Positions 23,750 through 63,387 of a DNA stretch of 64,000 nucleotides are shown piece after piece (the stretch's first letter is position 1; the number at the start of each line of letters is the position of its first letter). The DNA comes from an uncultured virus (IMG/VR IMGVR_UViG_3300025410_000672) (lineage: Duplodnaviria; Heunggongvirae; Uroviricota; Caudoviricetes), in IMG/VR virus record IMGVR_UViG_3300025410_000672, positions 1-64,000 of that record. One strand, 5' to 3'. Position numbers and translations under genes: made by a program. The notes beneath the pieces are model-generated. The model was not told where the DNA came from, did not search any database, and worked only from the letters and a program-made list of their open reading frames with translations.

Positions 23750-25297
23750 ATGACAGGACTGGTAGGTATAAGAGCAGCATCAAGTTCAGCAGGACCCGGA
23801 GATGCTTTTTCAGGATCTCCTATTCTTTCTGGATCATCTTTTGCTTCTGGATCGTCGTTACCACCTACAAGTGATTCATTTTCTTCTATAGGTGGATTAG
23901 GAAACTATTCAACAGCAAATGTTAGTCCTTCTCAATATCAAGGAGGTTTTGGTTCAAGCGGACAAAATGCAGGTCAGGCAGCAGCAGATTCAACTGCTAG
24001 TCAATCAAGTTCTAGTAGCAGTAGTGACAATACTGGAAAAAATCCTCAAAGAGGTTCTAGTACTAGAAAAAGAATGAGACGTGTTGATAATAAAGATTCT
24101 AGTTTAAGAGAACCACAACCAGCAGATGATAGAGTTAAATCTGCAACTAGTGATGATGCTGATATGTTCTTGGGTTTAAAAAGTTTAACACAAGAAGGAA
24201 GTAGTGGAAATAATGATGGTAGTTCTTTTTTAATTGATAGTATTCCTCCTAACTTAAACGGTGTAATACAAAGTTTTGTTCCTCAAGTAGCAGGAATGCA
24301 ATCATTATTAGGACAAATACCTAGTGCATCTTTAGGACAATTTTTAAATAATATACCATCAAGTTTACAAAGTTTATTACCAGCAGGAATGTTACCGGGA
24401 GTAACAAGCGGTTCTAATGTAAATTTAAGTACTATACAAAATTTAGCAAGCCAAGCAGGATTATCACAAAGTGCATTGTCAGGGTTATTAGGATCTAATG
24501 TAGGTAGTTCTGGAGGCAGTGGGTCTTTGCCAAGTCTTGCAAATGGTTTACAAAGTTCAGCGATATCGGGACTTTCACAAGCAATTCCTTCCAATATTGC
24601 TCAATCATTGTTCAATCCTAGTCAATTAACCAGTATGCTTCCTGCTAATTTACAAAACTTAATTCCTCAAGTTCCTCCAATATTCTCAGAAGGTGCAGAA
24701 AATCTTACATCAGCAGTAGCAAATGCTGCTCCTCAGATGGCTCCAAATAGCGACCAACCTAGTGGTGGTCAGGGAAGTAATGGATGTAACCATGTTGATC
24801 CTTCCAACGATGGAAAAAATAATACTAATACTCGTTATATTGATTATACACAAATGTTGTCACAAAATTTCTCCCTAGGTCAATTAACACTCTTGTCTGG
24901 TGTTGCTCCTGGTAGATTCCCACTAAGCGGAAAAGATTTAGATAAAGTTACTAAAAGTCTTTCTGGCGTTGCAGAAAATGTTTTAGAACCTTTAAAAACT
25001 GCTTATGGAGCATTTACTATTGTAGGTGGACTAAGAGATGATGGCGAACATAAGGATGGAAAATGTATAGATCTTTCATGGGCATGTAGTCAAACCAAAT
25101 TAATGGAAATTGCTCAATATGTACAAAACAGTCTTCCTGTATCCGAAGTTCAAATGCATCAAGGAAAAGGAAATGTAGGTTGGTTGCATATTAAATACGA
25201 CAATGGATCTTGTGGTGCTAGTGCCCAAACAAATAGTCCAGCAGGTGGACAAACTTCTGGATTAGTTGATTGGTCAACAATTCCATATACATTTTGA
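23750..25297 (+). CDS. Ser/Gly-rich baseplate-associated protein with C-terminal M15-like peptidase
   Basis: LSQNFSL...VLEPL...H..GKCID...WLHI. Confidence 0.6.
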   Translation: MTGLVGIRAASSSAGPGDAFSGSPILSGSSFASGSSLPPTSDSFSSIGGLGNYSTANVSPSQYQGGFGSSGQNAGQAAADSTASQSSSSSSSDNTGKNPQRGSSTRKRMRRVDNKDSSLREPQPADDRVKSATSDDADMFLGLKSLTQEGSSGNNDGSSFLIDSIPPNLNGVIQSFVPQVAGMQSLLGQIPSASLGQFLNNIPSSLQSLLPAGMLPGVTSGSNVNLSTIQNLASQAGLSQSALSGLLGSNVGSSGGSGSLPSLANGLQSSAISGLSQAIPSNIAQSLFNPSQLTSMLPANLQNLIPQVPPIFSEGAENLTSAVANAAPQMAPNSDQPSGGQGSNGCNHVDPSNDGKNNTNTRYIDYTQMLSQNFSLGQLTLLSGVAPGRFPLSGKDLDKVTKSLSGVAENVLEPLKTAYGAFTIVGGLRDDGEHKDGKCIDLSWACSQTKLMEIAQYVQNSLPVSEVQMHQGKGNVGWLHIKYDNGSCGASAQTNSPAGGQTSGLVDWSTIPYTF

Positions 25298-25324
25298 CAC
25301 AATCTAAATCCTATGCTATAAATA
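25294..25324 (+). promoter_or_regulatory. Composite sigma70 and T4-late promoter for tmRNA
   Basis: TTGACA-17 bp-TATAAA, with the -10 extended as TATAAATA. Confidence 0.7.
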
Positions 25325-25327
25325 GTT

Positions 25328-25637
25328 CATCATTGTTGATATCAATGTAATAAAACGAACTGGACGCCGGGGCGGTACCGGCCGCCTCCACCATAGTAGC
25401 ATTGTTTCCTAGGCCTGGCCCATGAAATCGCCCTTTGCGGTTGACAGTGCTACTTTGATGGGGGCGACAAAGGATTGACAGGCGAATAAAGATTGAAGTA
25501 GATGGTCCGGCGAAAGCTCGGTTAACGCAATAAAACTAATAAATGCAGCAAACGATAACTTTGCTCCATCTAAGGTTTCTGCTCTAGTAGCTTGACCTTA
25601 ATGAGCCCGCCGGAGCTCGGAAACAGAATCCGGCACT
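25328..25637 (+). ncRNA. ssrA: Circularly permuted two-piece tmRNA
   Basis: 3' acceptor end CGCCTCCACCA (ends 25393) precedes the 5' end GGGGGCG (25460), G3-U70; paired intervening segment; tag ORF AANDNFAPSKVSALVA* at 25545..25595; outer ends approximate. Confidence 0.9.
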
Positions 25638-31705: not shown

Positions 31706-33607
31706 ATGGCAAAGATAATCGGTATTGACCTCGGAACCACCAATAGCTGCGTTGCAGTTTTAGAAAACGGAACCCCCAAAGTAATTGAAAACGCAGAAGG
31801 TGCTAGAACAACACCAAGTATTGTTGGCTATGCTGACGATGGTGAAGTTCTAATCGGTCAACCAGCAAAGCGTCAAGCAGTAACTAATCCAACTAACACA
31901 ATTTATGCTGCTAAACGTTTCATCGGACGTCGCTTCAAAGAAGATGCTGTCCAAAAAGAAGTAAAGAATGCTCCATATAAAGTTGTGGAAGCAAAAAGTG
32001 GTGATGCGTGGATTAACGCAGGTGGCAAAGACATGGCACCTCAGCAGATATCAGCGGAAGTCCTTCGCAAAATGAAAAAGACTGCTGAAGACTATCTCGG
32101 TTATTCTGTTACAGAAGCAGTTATCACAGTTCCTGCTTACTTTAACGATGCCCAACGTCAAGCAACTAAGGACGCTGGTAAGATCGCAGGGCTTGAGGTA
32201 AAGCGTATCATCAACGAACCAACTGCTGCTGCTCTTGCATTTGGATGTGATAAGAGTGATAAGAAGGATCGTAAGGTAGCAGTATACGATCTCGGTGGTG
32301 GTACATTTGATATTAGTATAATTGATATCGCTGACACCGACGGTGATAAGCAGTTTGAGGTTCTATCCACAAACGGTGATACACATCTCGGTGGTGAAGA
32401 CTTTGACCAAAGAGTCATTGATTACCTTGTAGACGAATTTAAAAAGGAACAAGGCATTGATCTAAAGAAGGACACTATGGCTATTCAGCGTCTTAAAGAG
32501 GCTGCTGAAAAGGCAAAGATTGAGTTATCATCGGCAACTCAAACTGATGTCAATCTTCCTTATATCACTGCTGATGCTTCTGGACCTAAGCATTTGACGG
32601 TCAAAATCACCCGTTCAAAGTTTGAGGCGCTTGTGGAGGATTTGGTTCAGCGCTCTATTGCGCCATGTCAAATCGCCCTTAAAGACGCAGGTCTTAAGGC
32701 TACTGATATCGACGATGTGATATTAGTAGGCGGGCAAACTCGAATGCCAATGGTTCAAGAAGCAGTTGAAAAGTTCTTCGGTAAAGCACCACGTAAGGAT
32801 GTGAATCCAGATGAAGCAGTTGCCGTTGGTGCTGCTATCCAAGGTGCAGTATTAGGAGGTGATAAGAATGACGTATTATTACTTGACGTTACTCCGTTGT
32901 CACTTGGTATTGAGACAATGGGAGGTGTCTTTACAAAACTCATTGACAAAAATACAACTATTCCTACTAAGAAGAGCCAAGTCTTCTCAACTGCTGAAGA
33001 CAATCAGCCTGCCGTTACTATTAAGGTTGGACAGGGTGAAAGAGAACTTTTCGAGTATAATAAGTTACTTGGACTTTTTAATCTCGAAGGTATTGCTCCT
33101 GCTCGTCGTGGTATTCCACAAATTGAAGTTACATTCGATGTGGATGCTAACGGTATTCTTAGTGTTTCTGCAAAAGATAAGGGAACAGGTAAAGAACAAA
33201 AAATCACTATTCAAGCGAATGGTGGTTTAACTGAGGCTGAAATTGACCAAATGGTTAAAGATGCCGAAGCGAATGCCGCAGAGGATCATAAGAGAAGGGA
33301 GCTCATAGATGCTCGCAACAATGCAGATGCTAATGTAGCAAATATTCGCAGAGAACTTGAAGAGCATGGCGACAAAATATCTGCTGATGATAAGCAGAAA
33401 ATCGAAGATGTTCTTAAGGATGCAGAGGAAACTATCAAGGGAGAAGATAAAGAAGCTATTGATAAGGCTACACAGAAAATCTTCGAAGTTGCCGGTCCTC
33501 TATTCGCCGCCGCACAAGCAGCAAAACAAGAAGAACAATCAAGTAATAGCGACCCTGAAGTAAATCCAGATGTTGTTGACGCTGAATTTACCGAAGTAAA
33601 AGAGTAA
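31706..33607 (+). CDS. dnaK: Chaperone DnaK (Hsp70)
   Basis: [23 protein letters not shown]-terminal DAEFTEV. Confidence 0.98.
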
Positions 33608-33649
33608 AACTCTTGACAAATTGTAGTTTAAGTACTACATAATAAATAG

Positions 33650-33729
33650 TTGAGCGGGATTGCCAAATGGGGTTCCGCTCAATATACCGAAAGGTAAACA
33701 AAATCTTGCTTAATAAAGGAGATAAGAAG
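33650..33729 (+). promoter_or_regulatory. ROSE-like RNA thermometer upstream of hsp20
   Basis: Three hairpins; the last is TCTTGCT-TAATAA-AGGAGA over the SD. Confidence 0.7.
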
Positions 33730-46178: not shown

Positions 46179-46201
46179 ACCCTGTTAAAAACCCTCCCAA
46201 G

Positions 46202-46233
46202 AGCCGCTCGCGCAATGCGGGCGGTTTCTTTTT
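46202..46233 (+). terminator. Terminator after pmoC
   Basis: GCCGCTCGC-GCAAT-GCGGGCGGT followed by T-run. Confidence 0.8.
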
Positions 46234-48598: not shown

Positions 48599-49327
48599 AT
48601 GGAATTTCAAAAGATTTTAGAAGAAGGTATTACAATTCATAGTTCGGGTTCTTCCGGACCTTCAAAACCATTCTTCCAACCACCTAAAAAAATTAGAGCA
48701 GCAAATAGAATTTCTAGGATTGTTAACGGACTTACTGGAACTAGTAGAATCTATACTGTTATGAAAATGGATCATGCTGGTGGATTATTTGGACAAACTC
48801 TTCCTGGTTATGAAATTGGAGCAATGACTATAATTGAAAAATTTAGTCCATATACGTTTATTAAAAATATAAAAAGATTTTCTCATTCACATATTACTCC
48901 ATTACATGCTAAAGCAATAATGAAAACAAAAGGATTTAAAGATATTGATTTATCAAATATTACTATTATGTGTGGGGCAGAACCTGTTACTTGGGATATT
49001 ATAGAAGCATTTGTATCTAAAGGATGTATATTTATTACTAATTGGGGAATGAGTGAAATAGGTCCTACAGCAATTAATTATAAATTTAAATCAATAGAAG
49101 AAGTTAATTATGTTAAAAGTATTTGTCCAAAAGATGCTACAATATTAGGAAATAAAAAGTATTGTGAATATAAAATAGATAATGAAGAATTAGTGGTAAA
49201 AGGTGATATTTGTATTTTCGATAATTGGTATTATACTAAAGACAAAGTTGTAGAGATAGATGATATATTATTTTATTCTGGAAGAATAAATTTGGACGTA
49301 GACTTTAATAATCCAAAAAAAGGTTGA
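48599..49327 (+). CDS. Minimal AMP-binding (acyl-CoA synthetase-like) protein
   Basis: SSGSSGPSK, NWGMSEIGP, ELVVKG, WYYTKD..GR. Confidence 0.7.
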   Translation: MEFQKILEEGITIHSSGSSGPSKPFFQPPKKIRAANRISRIVNGLTGTSRIYTVMKMDHAGGLFGQTLPGYEIGAMTIIEKFSPYTFIKNIKRFSHSHITPLHAKAIMKTKGFKDIDLSNITIMCGAEPVTWDIIEAFVSKGCIFITNWGMSEIGPTAINYKFKSIEEVNYVKSICPKDATILGNKKYCEYKIDNEELVVKGDICIFDNWYYTKDKVVEIDDILFYSGRINLDVDFNNPKKG

Positions 49328-49354
49328 CATGTTTCTAATCTTCGTGTATAAATA
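49324..49354 (+). promoter_or_regulatory. Composite sigma70 and late promoter for the tRNA array
   Basis: TTGACA-17 bp-TATAAA(TA). Confidence 0.75.
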
Positions 49355-49383
49355 AAAGACAATAAGGAAACGTGAGTTCAAAA

Positions 49384-49511
49384 ATGAATCAACGCAATAA
49401 TCAAATTAGTATGGTATGCTGGTATGAAAATACCAGTCGGGGTCTTGCGTGGTGATTTAAGAATCACATATACGTTTACAAGACCCTGGAAGTAAAATTC
49501 CGGGGTTTTTT
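49384..49511 (+). promoter_or_regulatory. Candidate leader-peptide transcription attenuator
   Basis: 23-aa leader ORF; antiterminator GGGTCTTG/CAAGACCC overlaps terminator GACCCTGGAA/TTCCGGGGTT plus T-run. Confidence 0.65.
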
Positions 49512-49529
49512 ATTGAGAGGAGAACGAAT

Positions 49530-49685
49530 ATGAAGTGGCCTAAACTAATACAAAAGATGTATAAAGCAATTATAGAACGTGATGAAGATAAAGAAAAAGA
49601 GTTATACTTCAAAGCCATGAAGAAAAACTTCAAGGACAAGAAGGAAGAAAAGAAGATTACTGCTAAAAAGACTATTATAAAGTAG
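49530..49685 (+). CDS. Small Lys/Glu-rich protein (51 aa)
   Basis: GAGAGGAG SD; ORF MKWPKLIQK...TIIK read by eye. Confidence 0.55.
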   Translation: MKWPKLIQKMYKAIIERDEDKEKELYFKAMKKNFKDKKEEKKITAKKTIIK

Positions 49686-49728
49686 TAATCTTGTTGTTTG
49701 ACAGTGTGAATAAGAATTTAGCATTTTT

Positions 49729-49803
49729 GCTCCCTTCGTCTAGCGGTTAGGACGTCGCCCTTTCACGGCGAAAACAGGGATTCGAATTCCCTAGGGAGCA
49801 CCA
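49729..49803 (+). tRNA. tRNA-Glu(UUC)
   Basis: Cloverleaf, loop CT-TTC-AC, CCA. Confidence 0.95.
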
Positions 49804-49807
49804 ATAT

Positions 49808-49882
49808 GCTAGTGGGTCGGTATGGCATCGAAAGACTCTCATAAGATCTTCAAAATTGGTTCAATTCCAATCATTAGCACCA
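49808..49882 (+). tRNA. Divergent tRNA with CAU anticodon (Met or Ile2)
   Basis: Acceptor GCTAGTG/CATTAGC-A-CCA and T arm intact; loop CT-CAT-AA; D arm and anticodon stem mismatched. Confidence 0.6.
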
Positions 49883-49893
49883 ATAAATAATAT

Positions 49894-50577
49894 ATGCGTT
49901 TAATAATTTTAGGTGATAGTGGAGCAGCTGGAGATCATTCTTGGCCTAAGAAATTATCAAATAAACTAAATTGTGAATTAATAAATTTTGCCAAGCCTGC
50001 TGCACAAATTCTTTTACAAATACAATTAATGCAAGATTGGCTAATTGATAATGATTTAAATAAAAATGATATTATTATTTGGCAAATAGGATGGTCTCTA
50101 CATTCTGTTGTACATATAGGACACGAACATTTAGATTCCGTTCAAAAAGCAGATAGATTTGTAAAAAATAAATTGTTTATTTCTCATTATCATATAAGAG
50201 ACAATAAAATCGATAATAAAAAAAGAATATCTTTATTACCTATTAGTCCAATTCTTCATAAATTTTCTAATAGAAAAAAACCAAATGATGATGCAGAAGT
50301 ACTTCATCAATTACTTTTTATGCTTGTAATATTAAAGAAATTATGTCCTCACATATTAGTTACTCAATCACAAGAAGAATTTGTTAAGGACGAACATTGG
50401 AAAAACTTTAAAAAAATATTAATAGAAAAAGATATTGACTTTATCGAAGAAGGTATGTATAATTGGTGTATAAGTAATAACTTAGATACAGAATTTTTTC
50501 ATCCAACTAACGAATCTTATGGTATATATGTAGAACAAAAAATATATCCTAAATTAAAAAGTTTAGGTTGGATATAG
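49894..50577 (+). CDS. SGNH-hydrolase-like protein
   Basis: LGDS N-terminal motif; C-terminal D..FHP. Confidence 0.5.
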   Translation: MRLIILGDSGAAGDHSWPKKLSNKLNCELINFAKPAAQILLQIQLMQDWLIDNDLNKNDIIIWQIGWSLHSVVHIGHEHLDSVQKADRFVKNKLFISHYHIRDNKIDNKKRISLLPISPILHKFSNRKKPNDDAEVLHQLLFMLVILKKLCPHILVTQSQEEFVKDEHWKNFKKILIEKDIDFIEEGMYNWCISNNLDTEFFHPTNESYGIYVEQKIYPKLKSLGWI

Positions 50578-50613
50578 GTAGACCTGATAAATAATTATAG
50601 GAGGTCTACCAAT

Positions 50614-51042
50614 ATGCCTAGAGGAATTAAAGGAATACCAAAAACTTATCTTTGCTTACATTGTGGAAAAGAGAATAAATTCAGCTTTAGTAGTACAAAT
50701 AAGTTTTGCGATAATAAATGTCAAAAAGAATTTGAAGGTAAAGAAAAAGTTAAACTATGGTTAAAGGGAGATAAAGAACCAACTAAAAGTATCATAGTTA
50801 GATATCTAAAAGAAACTAAAGGATATAAATGTGATGTTTGTGGTTTATCTGAATGGAACGGATCATCTATAACATTAGAAATTGATCATATAGATGGCGA
50901 CTCAACAAACAATCATCCTTCCAATTTTAGATACATGTGTCCAAACTGCCATTCGCAAACACCTACATATAAAGGTGGAAATAAAGGTAATGGCAGACCA
51001 AGACATCAAAAGGATTATACAATAATACGCTCTCTTAGTTAA
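50614..51042 (+). mobile_element. HNH homing endonuclease in the tRNA array
   Basis: CDVCG..W....LEIDHIDGD..NN...N.R.MCPNCHSQT; stop codon lies inside tRNA-Thr. Confidence 0.9.
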
Positions 51043-51102
51043 ATGGTATAACAGCTGATTAGTAATCAGTTATTGGCAGTTCGATTCTGTCAGAGAGCAC
51101 CA
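51029..51102 (+). tRNA. tRNA-Thr(AGU)
   Basis: GCTCTCT/AGAGAGC acceptor, stem GCTGA/TCAGT, loop TT-AGT-AA, CCA. Confidence 0.85.
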
Positions 51103-51107
51103 TTTAA

Positions 51108-51181
51108 GCCGACATAGTGTAGTGGTAGCACGAGAGATTGTGGATCTTTTAGTCCAGGATCGTTACCCGGTGTCGGTACCA
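51108..51181 (+). tRNA. tRNA-His(GUG), alphaproteobacterial type
   Basis: Loop TT-GTG-GA; G1-U72, A73, A at position -1. Confidence 0.85.
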
Positions 51182-51186
51182 TTTAT

Positions 51187-51263
51187 TGGCGTGTAGCTCA
51201 GTTGGTTAGAGCATTCGACTGATAATCGAAAGGTCGGTGGTTCAAATCTACCCATGCCAACCA
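51187..51263 (+). tRNA. tRNA-Ile(GAU)
   Basis: Cloverleaf, loop CT-GAT-AA, CCA. Confidence 0.95.
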
Positions 51264-51268
51264 GTTAT

Positions 51269-51353
51269 GGGGGAATGTCCCGAGCGGCAAAGGGGGCGGA
51301 CTGTAAATCCGCTGGCTAAGCCTTCGTAGGTTCGAGTCCTACTTCCCCCACCA
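51269..51353 (+). tRNA. tRNA-Tyr(GUA)
   Basis: Long variable arm, loop CT-GTA-AA, CCA. Confidence 0.95.
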
Positions 51354-51354
51354 T

Positions 51355-51428
51355 AGAGGTAAAGTGTTACGATAGCACATCGGTCTCCAAAACCGAGGGC
51401 GTGGGTTTGACTCCTACTACCTCTGCCA
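51355..51428 (+). tRNA. tRNA-Trp(CCA)
   Basis: AGAGGTA/TACCTCT acceptor, loop CT-CCA-AA, G73. Confidence 0.9.
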
Positions 51429-51433
51429 AAATT

Positions 51434-51555
51434 TGTCGCGCTTGACCCGTCGCGGCAGACTTCCATACAATGCTTGGGAGTCAAATAAGTCCTACATCAA
51501 CTGTGTAGGGGTATAATAGTCCGCATTCCAAAGCGTACTCGCTAACGGGTTGCCA
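51434..51555 (+). ncRNA. Unknown structured RNA ending in GCCA
   Basis: Several complementary segments; see findings. Confidence 0.5.
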
Positions 51556-51559
51556 AATT

Positions 51560-51634
51560 GGGGAGGTGCCAGAACGGTTATGGGAAGGTCTGCAAAACCT
51601 TTATATGTGGGTTCGATTCCCATCCTCCCCTCCA
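51560..51634 (+). tRNA. tRNA-Cys(GCA)
   Basis: Loop CT-GCA-AA, U73, CCA. Confidence 0.93.
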
Positions 51635-63288: not shown

Positions 63289-63387
63289 GCGGGTGTAACT
63301 CAGAGGTAGAGTTCTTGCTTGCCTGAAGACATTAAGGTGTCTTGAATAAGCAAGATGTCGAGGGTTCGAATCCCTTCGCCCGCTCCA
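63289..63387 (+). tRNA. tRNA-Gly(GCC) with a 24-nt insert in the anticodon loop
   Basis: Gly acceptor GCGGGTG/CGCCCGC-U-CCA; removing 63324..63347 gives a 75-nt cloverleaf with loop TT-GCC-AA. Confidence 0.8.

What the first reader, a model, noticed from the sequence alone, without database searches (positions are those of the whole stretch)
49324..49511. Candidate attenuator that switches on the phage tRNA array when tRNAs run short
Seen: a promoter (TTGACA-17-TATAAATA) is followed by a 23-codon ORF, MNQRNNQISMVCWYENTSRGLAW* (49384..49455), containing a GAAA-tetraloop hairpin (49419..49436). Two mutually exclusive structures follow. The antiterminator pairs GGGTCTTG (49440-47, under the last leader codons) with CAAGACCC (49479-86). 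The intrinsic terminator is GACCCTGGAA/TTCCGGGGTT plus T-run (49482-49511). The downstream array encodes tRNAs Glu, CAU, Thr, His, Ile, Tyr, Trp and Cys. Seven of these eight amino acids fall in one 10-codon run of the leader (I-S-M-V-C-W-Y-E-N-T), with codons those anticodons could read (ACC needs A34/I34 wobble). Known: this is trp/his attenuator geometry, where full translation masks the antiterminator and stalling frees it. Inference: a multi-amino-acid sensor that releases phage tRNAs when host tRNAs are depleted or cut, for example by anticodon nucleases. I know of no description of this in phages.
Basis: partly seen in the sequence, partly recalled or inferred. Interest (0 to 1): 0.92.

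Follow-up and report, generated by a model that had tools for sequence, protein, structure and literature searches.

The report
Switchable terminator before phage tRNA genes
A giant freshwater phage carries, behind one of its own promoters, a short RNA leader that can fold either into a transcription stop signal or into a competing hairpin, with a tiny reading frame ending on that hairpin, so it probably tunes read-through into a small gene and two tRNA genes, though its link to tRNA shortage is unproven.

Summary
The three helices are far stronger than chance, and the antiterminator/terminator competition is real. Upstream sequence pairs with the terminator's 5' arm at -17.9 kcal/mol, matched by 1 of 2000 shuffles and 0 of 2087 genomic segments. 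It is the only one of 25 terminator-like hairpins in this 77.7-kb record with such a competitor.

The promoter belongs to a strand-biased phage promoter class. The 23-codon ORF ends 5 nt past the antiterminator's 5' arm; this placement has about 8-11% chance expectation.

A conserved 51-aa ORF with a strong ribosome-binding site lies between the terminator and tRNA-Glu. Two protein genes and promoter-like sites split the "array". The leader ORF has no well-spaced Shine-Dalgarno. The codon match is weak and post hoc (p about 0.003-0.06).

I could fetch no relative's DNA, so conservation and covariation remain untested.

Best reading: a translation-coupled attenuator, confidence about 0.45. The tRNA-shortage sensor version is about 0.15.

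This scan flagged the same idea before on other DNA (e1-5368003 and others). Those are unchecked AI notes.

The parts
49324..49352 (+). Sigma-70-type promoter: TTGACA (49324-29), 17 nt, TATAAA (49347-52). The -35 hexamer contains the TGA stop of the upstream 242-aa gene. The predicted start is about 49359.
   Evidence: Sequence. It belongs to a class TTGACA-N16-18-TAnnn[T/A] found 22 times on the + strand and 4 times on the - strand, with 16 of 22 outside long ORFs. Class members precede tRNAs, the tmRNA and genes.
49384..49455 (+). 23-codon ORF (27 codons from GTG 49372). Codons 12-18 lie in hairpin 1 and codons 19-22 are the antiterminator 5' arm. The stop is at 49453-55.
   Evidence: The chance of a 15-60-codon ATG ORF stopping in the 22-nt window over the arm is 7.6-10.9%. 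AAGGA lies 15 nt before the ATG and 3 nt before the GTG, whereas most of the 37 SD-bearing long ORFs have spacing of 5-9 nt.
49418..49437 (+). Hairpin 1: 8 bp with a GAAA tetraloop. It abuts the antiterminator arm but does not compete with it.
   Evidence: -10.5 kcal/mol, z -6.4, 0 of 200 shuffles.
49438..49488 (+). Antiterminator: 5' arm CGGGGUCUUG (49438-47) pairs with CAAGACCCUG (49479-88), enclosing an inner hairpin at 49448-75.
   Evidence: -21.4 kcal/mol, z -5.5. Duplex test: 1 of 2000 shuffles and 0 of 2087 genomic segments. It is the minimum-energy fold of the nascent RNA at 3' ends 49490-49502.
49480..49514 (+). Intrinsic terminator: AAGACCCUGGAA / loop GUAAAA / UUCCGGGGUUUU, with a T-run at 49506-11. 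It shares 49480-88 with the antiterminator 3' arm.
   Evidence: -17.1 kcal/mol, z -4.6. It is the only one of 25 terminator-like hairpins in the record with a strong upstream competitor (z -4.7, 0 of 200).
49515..49685 (+). RBS GAGAGGAGAA (49515-24) and a 51-aa Lys/Glu-rich ORF (49530-49685). This is the first gene behind the terminator and there is no room for a promoter of its own.
   Evidence: The protein cluster has 5 members on 15 or more contigs, including three full-length variants with substitutions only. No Pfam or PHROG family.
49699..49704 (+). TTGACA lying 25 nt before tRNA-Glu. The best -10 is TAGCAT at a 15-nt spacing, which would start transcription inside the tRNA, so it is a doubtful promoter.
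   Evidence: Sequence. The judgement on spacing is my reading.
49729..49882 (+). tRNA-Glu(UUC) 49729-49803 and tRNA(CAU) 49808-49882. These are the tRNAs most likely to depend on read-through.
49894..51042 (+). A 227-aa gene (49894-50577) and a 142-aa HNH-type gene (50614-51042) that split the 'array'. A promoter-like site TTGACT-17-TATAAT lies at 50435-63.
51029..51634 (+). tRNA-Thr(AGU), His, Ile, Tyr and Trp (51029-51428) and tRNA-Cys (51560-51634). A promoter-like site TTGACC-18-TACAAT lies at 51442-71.

Best explanation
This is a promoter-proximal leader of about 150 nt that acts as a translation-coupled transcription attenuator.

A phage sigma-70-type promoter (49324-52) starts an RNA that first forms hairpin 1. 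It then forms a long antiterminator hairpin (49438-88) whose 3' arm is also the 5' half of an intrinsic terminator (49480-514). The two folds are almost equal in energy and interconvert easily, so the leader sits near the tipping point.

A 23-codon reading frame runs through hairpin 1, and its codons 19-22 are the antiterminator's 5' arm. A ribosome that reaches the end of the frame covers that arm, the terminator forms and transcription stops near 49510. If ribosomes are absent, late or stalled before about codon 15, the antiterminator competes and part of the polymerases read through. They then reach the 51-aa ORF, tRNA-Glu and tRNA(CAU), and perhaps the genes and tRNAs beyond.

Shown: the promoter class, the three helices, their mutual exclusion and the ORF geometry. 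Inferred: translation of the ORF, the kinetic decision and which genes depend on read-through.
For: - Structure: z -5.4 for the leader. Each helix has z between -4.6 and -6.4, 0 of 200 shuffles.
- Competition with the terminator arm: -17.9 kcal/mol, reached by 1 of 2000 shuffles and 0 of 2087 genomic segments.
- Uniqueness: 1 of 25 terminator-like hairpins in the record has such a competitor; the next best has z -2.8.
- Balance of the two folds: terminator fold -44.7 against antiterminator fold -42.7 kcal/mol. The antiterminator is the minimum-energy fold while the 3' end is at 49490-49502. The local refolding barrier is about 4 kcal/mol between states of -39.2 and -40.2.
- Ribosome masking: with a ribosome footprint at codons 15-24, the terminator pair probability is 1.0.
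- ORF placement: the stop falls in the 22-nt window over the arm, with 7.6-10.9% chance expectation.
- Promoter: it belongs to a class of 22 sites on the + strand against 4 on the - strand, 16 of 22 intergenic.
- Need for read-through: the 51-aa ORF has a strong RBS 8 nt before its ATG and only 18 nt separate it from the T-run. Three intact protein variants exist. So the terminator must be passable.
Against: - No Shine-Dalgarno at working distance. AAGGA lies 15 nt from the ATG and 3 nt from the GTG, while 29 of 37 SD-bearing long ORFs have 5-9 nt. However, 49 of 86 long ORFs have none.
- At equilibrium, stalls at codons 8-14 do not favour the antiterminator (P 0.01-0.14, and 0.49 only at codon 10). 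The ribosome can therefore only push towards termination.
- The low barrier fits a plain leaky terminator equally well.
- A trp-like segment 1:2 pairing is not significant (49 of 500 shuffles).
- There are no runs of regulatory codons.
- No relative's DNA could be fetched, so there is no test of ORF conservation or covariation.
- An earlier finding's genome shares fewer short words with the leader (10 of 53; 0 of 13 in the ORF body) than with the 51-aa ORF plus tRNAs (64 of 109).
- Terminator 46199-230 also stands 15 nt before a co-oriented gene without any competitor. Read-through in this phage therefore need not require a switch.
- Aeromonas phage Aeh1 and the distant relative G003 (read by eye) show no such module before their tRNAs.
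Confidence: 0.45

Rival explanations
1. It is a terminator/antiterminator switch or tuned leaky terminator that does not use the small ORF. Either a phage or host factor (a protein, small RNA or tRNA) binds hairpin 1 or the antiterminator, or the near-isoenergetic folds simply set a fixed read-through fraction for the 51-aa ORF and the tRNAs.
For: - The helices and their competition are significant on their own.
- The barrier is about 4 kcal/mol and the two folds differ by 1-2 kcal/mol.
- The ORF lacks a well-spaced Shine-Dalgarno.
- The ORF placement alone has 8-11% chance expectation.
- Hairpin 1 has a GNRA loop and no competing role. This is reminiscent of protein-binding hairpins such as lambda boxB, which I recall rather than tested.
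Against: - No Rfam family matches, including T-box and riboswitches.
- No boxA within 3 mismatches lies in 49324-49530.
- The ORF ends exactly where a terminating ribosome would mask the arm.
- No candidate factor was identified.
Confidence: 0.28
2. This is the first reader's specific version: a multi-amino-acid, codon-matched sensor. Single codons for Ile, Met, Cys, Trp, Tyr, Glu and Thr report shortage of exactly the tRNAs encoded downstream and switch the array on, for example after anticodon-nuclease attack.
For: - ISMVCWYENT holds 7 of the 8 array amino acids. Only 4 of 85,178 stop-free six-frame 10-residue windows do so, as do 1 of 499 small ORFs and 0.26% of random 23-mers.
- Five of the seven codons (I, M, C, W, Y) lie where a stalled ribosome leaves the arm free.
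Against: - The window length and the choice of eight tRNAs were made after the fact.
- 7 of 8 anywhere in the peptide occurs in 32 of 499 small ORFs, and in 6% of random peptides.
- The phage encodes tRNAs for at least 17 amino acids in this record, so almost any peptide 'matches'.
- W-Y and N-T are forced by the two arms of hairpin 1.
- These are single codons with no runs, and His is absent.
- Stalls at E, N and T cover the arm.
- Six of the eight tRNAs lie behind two genes and promoter-like sites.
Confidence: 0.13
3. It is a stand-alone small RNA gene or a tiny protein gene with its own promoter and terminator. The roughly 150-nt terminated transcript, or the 23-aa peptide, would be the product. 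This is not exclusive of attenuation; rnTrpL and peTrpL of Sinorhizobium do both.
For: - There is a complete promoter-to-terminator unit of about 150 nt with strong structure.
- At equilibrium the terminator fold dominates (P 0.97).
- It lies among tRNA and tmRNA genes driven by the same promoter class.
- Abstracts on rnTrpL/peTrpL were seen in the listing (PMC7968998, PMC7298713).
Against: - A dedicated RNA gene would not be expected to hide half its terminator in a competing hairpin.
- The 51-aa ORF directly behind needs read-through.
- There is no Rfam match and no second copy in the record.
- The peptide has no family and is too short to search.
Confidence: 0.1

Closest known systems
Leader-peptide (ribosome-mediated) transcription attenuators of amino-acid operons: trpL, hisL, pheL, thrL, leuL, ilvL (Rfam RF00513, RF00514 and related)
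   Same: It has a promoter-proximal short ORF and an intrinsic terminator whose 5' arm can instead pair with an upstream segment. The ORF's end lies on that segment, so ribosome position can decide the fold.
   Different: - There are no runs of regulatory codons.
- No significant segment 1:2 pairing exists, so the logic uses three segments rather than four.
- The downstream genes are a 51-aa ORF and tRNAs in a phage.
- It falls below every Rfam threshold (His_leader 20.9 bits against 49).
- The Shine-Dalgarno spacing is poor.
Ribosome-stalling attenuators that sense translation in general rather than one amino acid, e.g. B. subtilis bmrCD and the mef(E)/mel leaders (PMC4191407 and PMC4335068, abstracts seen)
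   Same: A short upstream ORF combined with a terminator responds to how well ribosomes progress. This is the best functional analogue for a 'translation-health' sensor.
   Different: Those respond to antibiotics and control resistance genes in bacteria. No inducer is known here, and there is no sequence relation.
T-box riboswitch (tRNA-sensing antiterminator)
   Same: An antiterminator/terminator choice is tied to tRNA status, and it controls translation-related genes.
   Different: No T-box match appears in Rfam, even at E up to 10. The leader is about 130 nt, and by my reading it has no Stem I or specifier and no bulged antiterminator.
Phage processive antitermination sites (lambda nut boxA/boxB, HK022 put)
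   Same: It is a phage early transcript in which a GNRA-type hairpin lies ahead of a terminator.
   Different: There is no boxA in the leader. Here a dedicated competing hairpin overlaps the terminator, which nut and put sites do not need. That comparison is recalled, not tested.
Attenuator-derived sRNA rnTrpL and peptide peTrpL of Sinorhizobium meliloti (PMC7968998 and PMC7298713, abstracts seen)
   Same: The terminated leader could itself act as a product. The phage carries an alphaproteobacterial-type tmRNA.
   Different: There is no sequence similarity and no evidence of any trans function.

Membership tests
Leader-peptide transcription attenuator (functional class) | Intrinsic terminator between the promoter and the regulated genes | tested here: met
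   Terminator 49480-49514, -17.1 kcal/mol, z -4.6. The promoter is at 49324-52. The 51-aa ORF starts 18 nt after the T-run.
Leader-peptide transcription attenuator (functional class) | Antiterminator mutually exclusive with the terminator | tested here: met
   The two share 49480-88. Duplex -17.9 kcal/mol, 1 of 2000 shuffles and 0 of 2087 genomic segments. It is unique among 25 terminator-like hairpins.
Leader-peptide transcription attenuator (functional class) | Short ORF placed so that ribosome position selects the fold | tested here: met
   Codons 19-22 are the 5' arm and the stop lies 5 nt beyond it. The terminator probability is 1.0 with footprints at codons 15-24. Chance placement is 7.6-10.9%.
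Leader-peptide transcription attenuator (functional class) | The ORF is translated (start codon with a ribosome-binding site) | tested here: inconclusive
   An ATG is present. AAGGA lies at 15 nt from it (3 nt from the GTG), outside the usual 5-9 nt. However, 49 of 86 long ORFs have no SD-like motif. No RNA or ribosome data exist.
Leader-peptide transcription attenuator (functional class) | Clustered regulatory codons for the amino acid(s) sensed | tested here: not met
   Only single codons are present. 7 of 8 array amino acids fall in 10 codons (1 of 499 small ORFs), but 7 of 8 anywhere occurs in 32 of 499.
Leader-peptide transcription attenuator (functional class) | Anti-antiterminator / pause hairpin (segment 1:2) competing with the antiterminator | tested here: not met
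   Hairpin 1 is strong (z -6.4) but does not overlap the arm. The candidate pairing of 49385-97 with 49445-59 is not significant (49 of 500 shuffles).
Leader-peptide transcription attenuator (functional class) | ORF and helices conserved, with compensatory changes, in relatives | not testable with these tools
   No relative's DNA was found: 7 scans of viral contigs, 1 of metagenome contigs and 1 of genome contigs. Contigs in four runs are identical over the element.
Rfam leader families (His_leader RF00514 and others) | Score at or above the family's gathering threshold | tested here: not met
   His_leader scores 20.9 bits against 49, E 0.49. No family reaches threshold in 49200-49800 except tRNA.
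T-box riboswitch | Match to the T-box covariance model (Stem I, specifier, T-box antiterminator) | tested here: not met
   It is not among the 12 matches listed at E up to 10.
nut-type antitermination site | boxA element next to the boxB-like hairpin | tested here: not met
   None of the 48 matches to the boxA consensus (up to 3 mismatches) in the window lies in 49324-49530. The count equals chance (41.4 +/- 6.8). The consensus was recalled.

The most novel reading that the evidence does not exclude
The leader is a translation-stress sensor of a giant phage. When host decoding fails, through tRNA depletion or cleavage by anticodon nucleases, ribosomes fail to reach the end of the 23-codon frame in time. 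The antiterminator then wins and the phage transcribes more of its own tRNA genes. The frame's Ile/Met/Cys/Trp/Tyr/Glu/Thr codons would be tuned to the tRNAs it releases. This would be trp-style attenuation applied to tRNA genes, as a counter-defence.
Probability: 0.15. Interest if true: 0.9.

Novelty: new variant of a known kind. Interest (0 to 1): 0.6.

Why it matters
Phage tRNA genes are now seen as counter-measures to tRNA-targeting host defences (abstracts of PMC10264068 and PMC11555353, seen in the listing). How phages control their expression is largely unknown.

A ribosome-read attenuator in front of tRNA genes would mean the phage measures translation capacity directly and answers with tRNA supply. 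None of the four literature listings I saw shows such a control (titles and abstract starts only).

Even the modest reading is useful. It gives a clean, statistically solid terminator/antiterminator pair in an uncultured giant phage, and a compact element that can be tested in a reporter.

Tried and rejected
Searches for known RNA families
- Rfam over the whole window at gathering thresholds found only the tmRNA and tRNAs. At E up to 10 on 49200-49800 it found nothing meaningful.
- The T-box and boxA/nut readings were rejected.

Searches for relatives
- The upstream 242-aa gene gave 4 viral and 9 metagenome loci. One is the same phage at 100% identity (L015). The others are 44-49% identical, with no tRNA and no element downstream.
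- The 227-aa gene and the 301-aa gene returned only another contig of the same phage, which ends at about 50040.
- The 51-aa ORF found nothing in viral contigs or genome contigs.
- Three DNA patterns found nothing: a 29-mer of the hairpin and arm, a degenerate MVCWYENT pattern, and a 25-mer of the tRNA(CAU) 3' end.
- BLAST of the element against five related virus records gave only chance hits with E of 0.16 or higher.
- blastn against GenBank phages matched only tRNA-Glu.
- The record behind L015 is not held.

Sequencing runs
- No RNA holder was listed.
- The four runs I laid cover the element only with identical low-depth contigs. One 182-nt contig matches 49483-49529 with 7 differences and is unlike upstream.

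Protein look-ups
- The antisense 60-aa ORF has no homologue.
- The 27-aa leader is below the size limit of the protein search.

Other tests
- A trp-like segment 1:2 pairing was tested and is not significant.
- A look at Aeromonas phage Aeh1's tRNA region found 6 terminator-like hairpins, none with a competitor (z 0.3 or higher). Its ORF before tRNA-Glu is unrelated to the 51-aa ORF.
- G003's tRNAs have plain promoters (read by eye).

Not done: I built no covariance model, because there was no second sequence. I used no structure or complex prediction.
Full report
**Source**

The window is a virus record of 77.7 kb, 35% G+C and about 22% complete. The same phage appears as a 352.5-kb metagenome contig identical over the 6.7 kb fetched (L015) and as a 107-kb IMG/VR contig that begins inside the 227-aa gene. 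All 24 listed sequencing runs that hold the stretch are freshwater metagenomes. None is on record as RNA.

**Observation**

The leader from 49355 to 49516 folds at -47.6 kcal/mol against -29.1 +/- 3.4 for 200 dinucleotide shuffles, z -5.4, with none as good. Taken separately:
- hairpin 1 (49417-38): z -6.4
- the long antiterminator hairpin (49438-88): z -5.5
- the terminator (49480-511): z -4.6

None of 200 shuffles reached any of these. Controls gave z -0.4 for the upstream gene and z -3.0 for the 51-aa ORF region.

The promoter TTGACA-17-TATAAA belongs to a class TTGACA-N16-18-TAnnn[T/A]. This class occurs 22 times on the + strand and 4 times on the - strand of the record, with 16 of the 22 outside long ORFs. 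Its members stand directly before tRNA-Ala, tRNA-Ser, tRNA-Asn, tRNA-Leu, the tmRNA and several protein genes. I take the promoter as real, with a start near 49359.

**The switch**

The 3' arm of the long hairpin (49479-88) and the 5' arm of the terminator (49480-91) are the same bases.
- The best duplex between the 120 nt upstream and the terminator arm is -17.9 kcal/mol. That is reached by 1 of 2000 shuffles and by 0 of 2087 other 120-nt segments of the record.
- I called 25 terminator-like hairpins in the record by a simple rule, 13 on the + strand and 12 on the - strand. Only this one has a strong competitor (z -4.7, 0 of 200). The next best has z -2.8, and the five strongest terminators have z of 0 or higher.
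- For the transcript 49359-49511 the terminator fold has -44.7 and the antiterminator fold -42.7 kcal/mol.
- While the 3' end is at 49490-49502 the antiterminator is the minimum-energy fold.
- The local path from that fold to the terminator has a barrier of about 4 kcal/mol between states of -39.2 and -40.2.

The leader is therefore a finely balanced two-state element, not an ordinary terminator.

**The small ORF**

Codons 12-18 form hairpin 1, codons 19-22 are the antiterminator's 5' arm, and the stop follows 5 nt later.
- With a 30-nt footprint at codons 15-24 the terminator pairs have probability 1.0. Footprints at codons 1-14 leave the arm free.
- A 15-60-codon ATG ORF stops in the 22-nt window over such an arm at 7.6-10.9% of random places. 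The placement is therefore mild evidence, about tenfold, for a ribosome-read switch.
- Against it, AAGGA lies 15 nt before the ATG and 3 nt before the alternative GTG. Of the 37 long ORFs (of 86) with an SD-like motif, 29 have a spacing of 5-9 nt. The other 49 of 86 have no such motif.
- A trp-like pairing of the ORF's start with the region of the arm is not significant (49 of 500 shuffles).
- At equilibrium, stalls at codons 8-14 do not favour the antiterminator. Ribosomes can therefore only push towards termination, and the 'on' state is the intrinsic leak.

**What lies downstream**

The first gene after the T-run is not a tRNA. It is a 51-aa Lys/Glu-rich ORF with the RBS GAGAGGAGAA, and there is no room for a promoter.
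- Its protein cluster has five members, three of them full-length variants differing by substitutions only, and no other homologue among 5.8 billion proteins.
- It is a real lineage-specific gene that can only be expressed by read-through. This is itself an argument that the terminator is meant to be passable.
- tRNA-Glu and tRNA(CAU) follow. The TTGACA 25 nt before tRNA-Glu has only a 15-nt-spaced TAGCAT, which would start inside the tRNA (my reading). These two tRNAs probably depend on the leader as well.
- The other six tRNAs lie behind a 227-aa gene, an HNH-type gene and promoter-like sites at 50435 (11 of 12 matches) and 51442.

**The codon argument**

The run ISMVCWYENT holds 7 of the 8 amino acids of the array.
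- This is true of 4 of 85,178 stop-free 10-residue windows in six frames, of 1 of 499 small ORFs, and of 0.26% of random 23-mers.
- 7 of 8 anywhere in the peptide is true of 32 of 499 small ORFs, and of 6% of random peptides.
- The window length and the set of eight tRNAs were chosen after seeing the data.
- The record encodes tRNAs for at least 17 amino acids.
- W-Y and N-T are imposed by the two arms of hairpin 1.

I regard this as suggestive at best.

**Relatives**

I could not obtain any orthologous DNA; the searches are listed under Tried and rejected.
- Homologues of the 242-aa upstream gene (44-49% identity) have other neighbours and no tRNAs.
- A distant 306-kb relative has plain promoters before its tRNAs (read by eye).
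- Aeromonas phage Aeh1 shares the order Glu-Met-Thr-His but has no terminator with a competitor in its tRNA region.
- Contigs of four runs are identical over the element. One short contig resembles only the terminator and RBS (7 differences in 47) and differs upstream.

**Earlier notes of this scan**

That genome shares these proportions of short words with the region:

| Stretch | Words shared |
|---|---|
| Whole leader, 49324-49530 | 10 of 53 |
| 49324-49400 | 3 of 20 |
| ORF body, 49384-49465 | 0 of 13 |
| 49450-49535 | 3 of 21 |
| 51-aa ORF plus tRNAs, 49525-49890 | 64 of 109 |
| 49686-49806 | 11 of 20 |

The leader therefore evolves faster than its neighbours. Fifteen such notes exist in the scan, of which eight were shown to me. 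They are unchecked AI readings and I did not count them as evidence.

**Literature**

Four full-text searches returned no paper describing leader-peptide attenuation of phage tRNA genes. I saw only the listings, with titles and abstract starts.

**Verdict**

The estimates are:

| Reading | Confidence |
|---|---|
| Translation-coupled attenuator gating the 51-aa ORF and tRNA-Glu/tRNA(CAU) | about 0.45 |
| ORF-independent or merely leaky switch | about 0.28 |
| Free-standing small RNA or peptide gene | about 0.1 |

If real, it is a new variant of a known kind of control.

Noticed in passing
window 25290-25637 (+): A phage-encoded permuted (two-piece) tmRNA of the alphaproteobacterial type scores 112 bits against the Rfam model. 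A TTGACA-17-TATAAA promoter of the same class sits at 25294. This hints at an alphaproteobacterial host.
   Followed up: no
window 31706-33607 (+): A full-length DnaK/Hsp70 homologue is encoded by the phage. It is 66-69% identical to bacterial-type DnaK in phage-labelled records and 51-59% identical to those of uncultured huge phages.
   Followed up: partly
window 51029-51102 (+): tRNA-Thr has anticodon AGT, with A at the wobble position. This is an unusual anticodon for a bacterial-type tRNA.
   Followed up: no
window 63289-63384 (+): A 96-nt Rfam tRNA match (54.9 bits) directly after tRNA-Gln was not called by ARAGORN. It may be a tRNA with an insertion or a long arm.
   Followed up: no
window 46199-46230 (+): A strong terminator (-18.5 kcal/mol) lies 15 nt before the co-oriented 298-aa gene, with no room for a promoter and no competing hairpin (z +1.0). 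Read-through of terminators may be general in this phage.
   Followed up: partly
window 48599-49327 (+); L001 and L016 downstream of the match: The 242-aa gene upstream of the leader carries an SSGSSGPSKP stretch that I recall as resembling the adenylate-forming (ANL) motif. In relatives at 48-49% identity it is followed by a gene with a CxxxCxxC-like CKFCAYP stretch, radical-SAM-like by recall. It has no Pfam or PHROG hit.
   Followed up: no
window 49475-49482 and about 50040: Contigs of two runs end at 49475 and 49482, inside the switch, and the IMG/VR contig of the same phage ends at about 50040. One 182-nt contig keeps only the terminator and RBS (7 differences in 47 nt) and differs upstream. 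This may be a local hot spot of strain variation.
   Followed up: no
window 49729-51181 vs L027 6000-6522: The tRNA order Glu, Met(CAU), Thr, His is the same as in Aeromonas phage Aeh1 (Straboviridae). This suggests an old shared array core that here is interrupted by two protein genes, one of them HNH-type.
   Followed up: partly
window 33613-33690 (+): Another promoter of the TTGACA class is followed at once by a GC-rich hairpin (GAGCGGGA...TTCCGCTC) rather than by a gene start. It may be another small structured transcript.
   Followed up: no
L027 2494-3066 (Aeromonas phage Aeh1): A 570-nt non-coding stretch with several promoter-like sites precedes the first tRNA of the Aeh1 array. My scan found no terminator in it.
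   Followed up: partly
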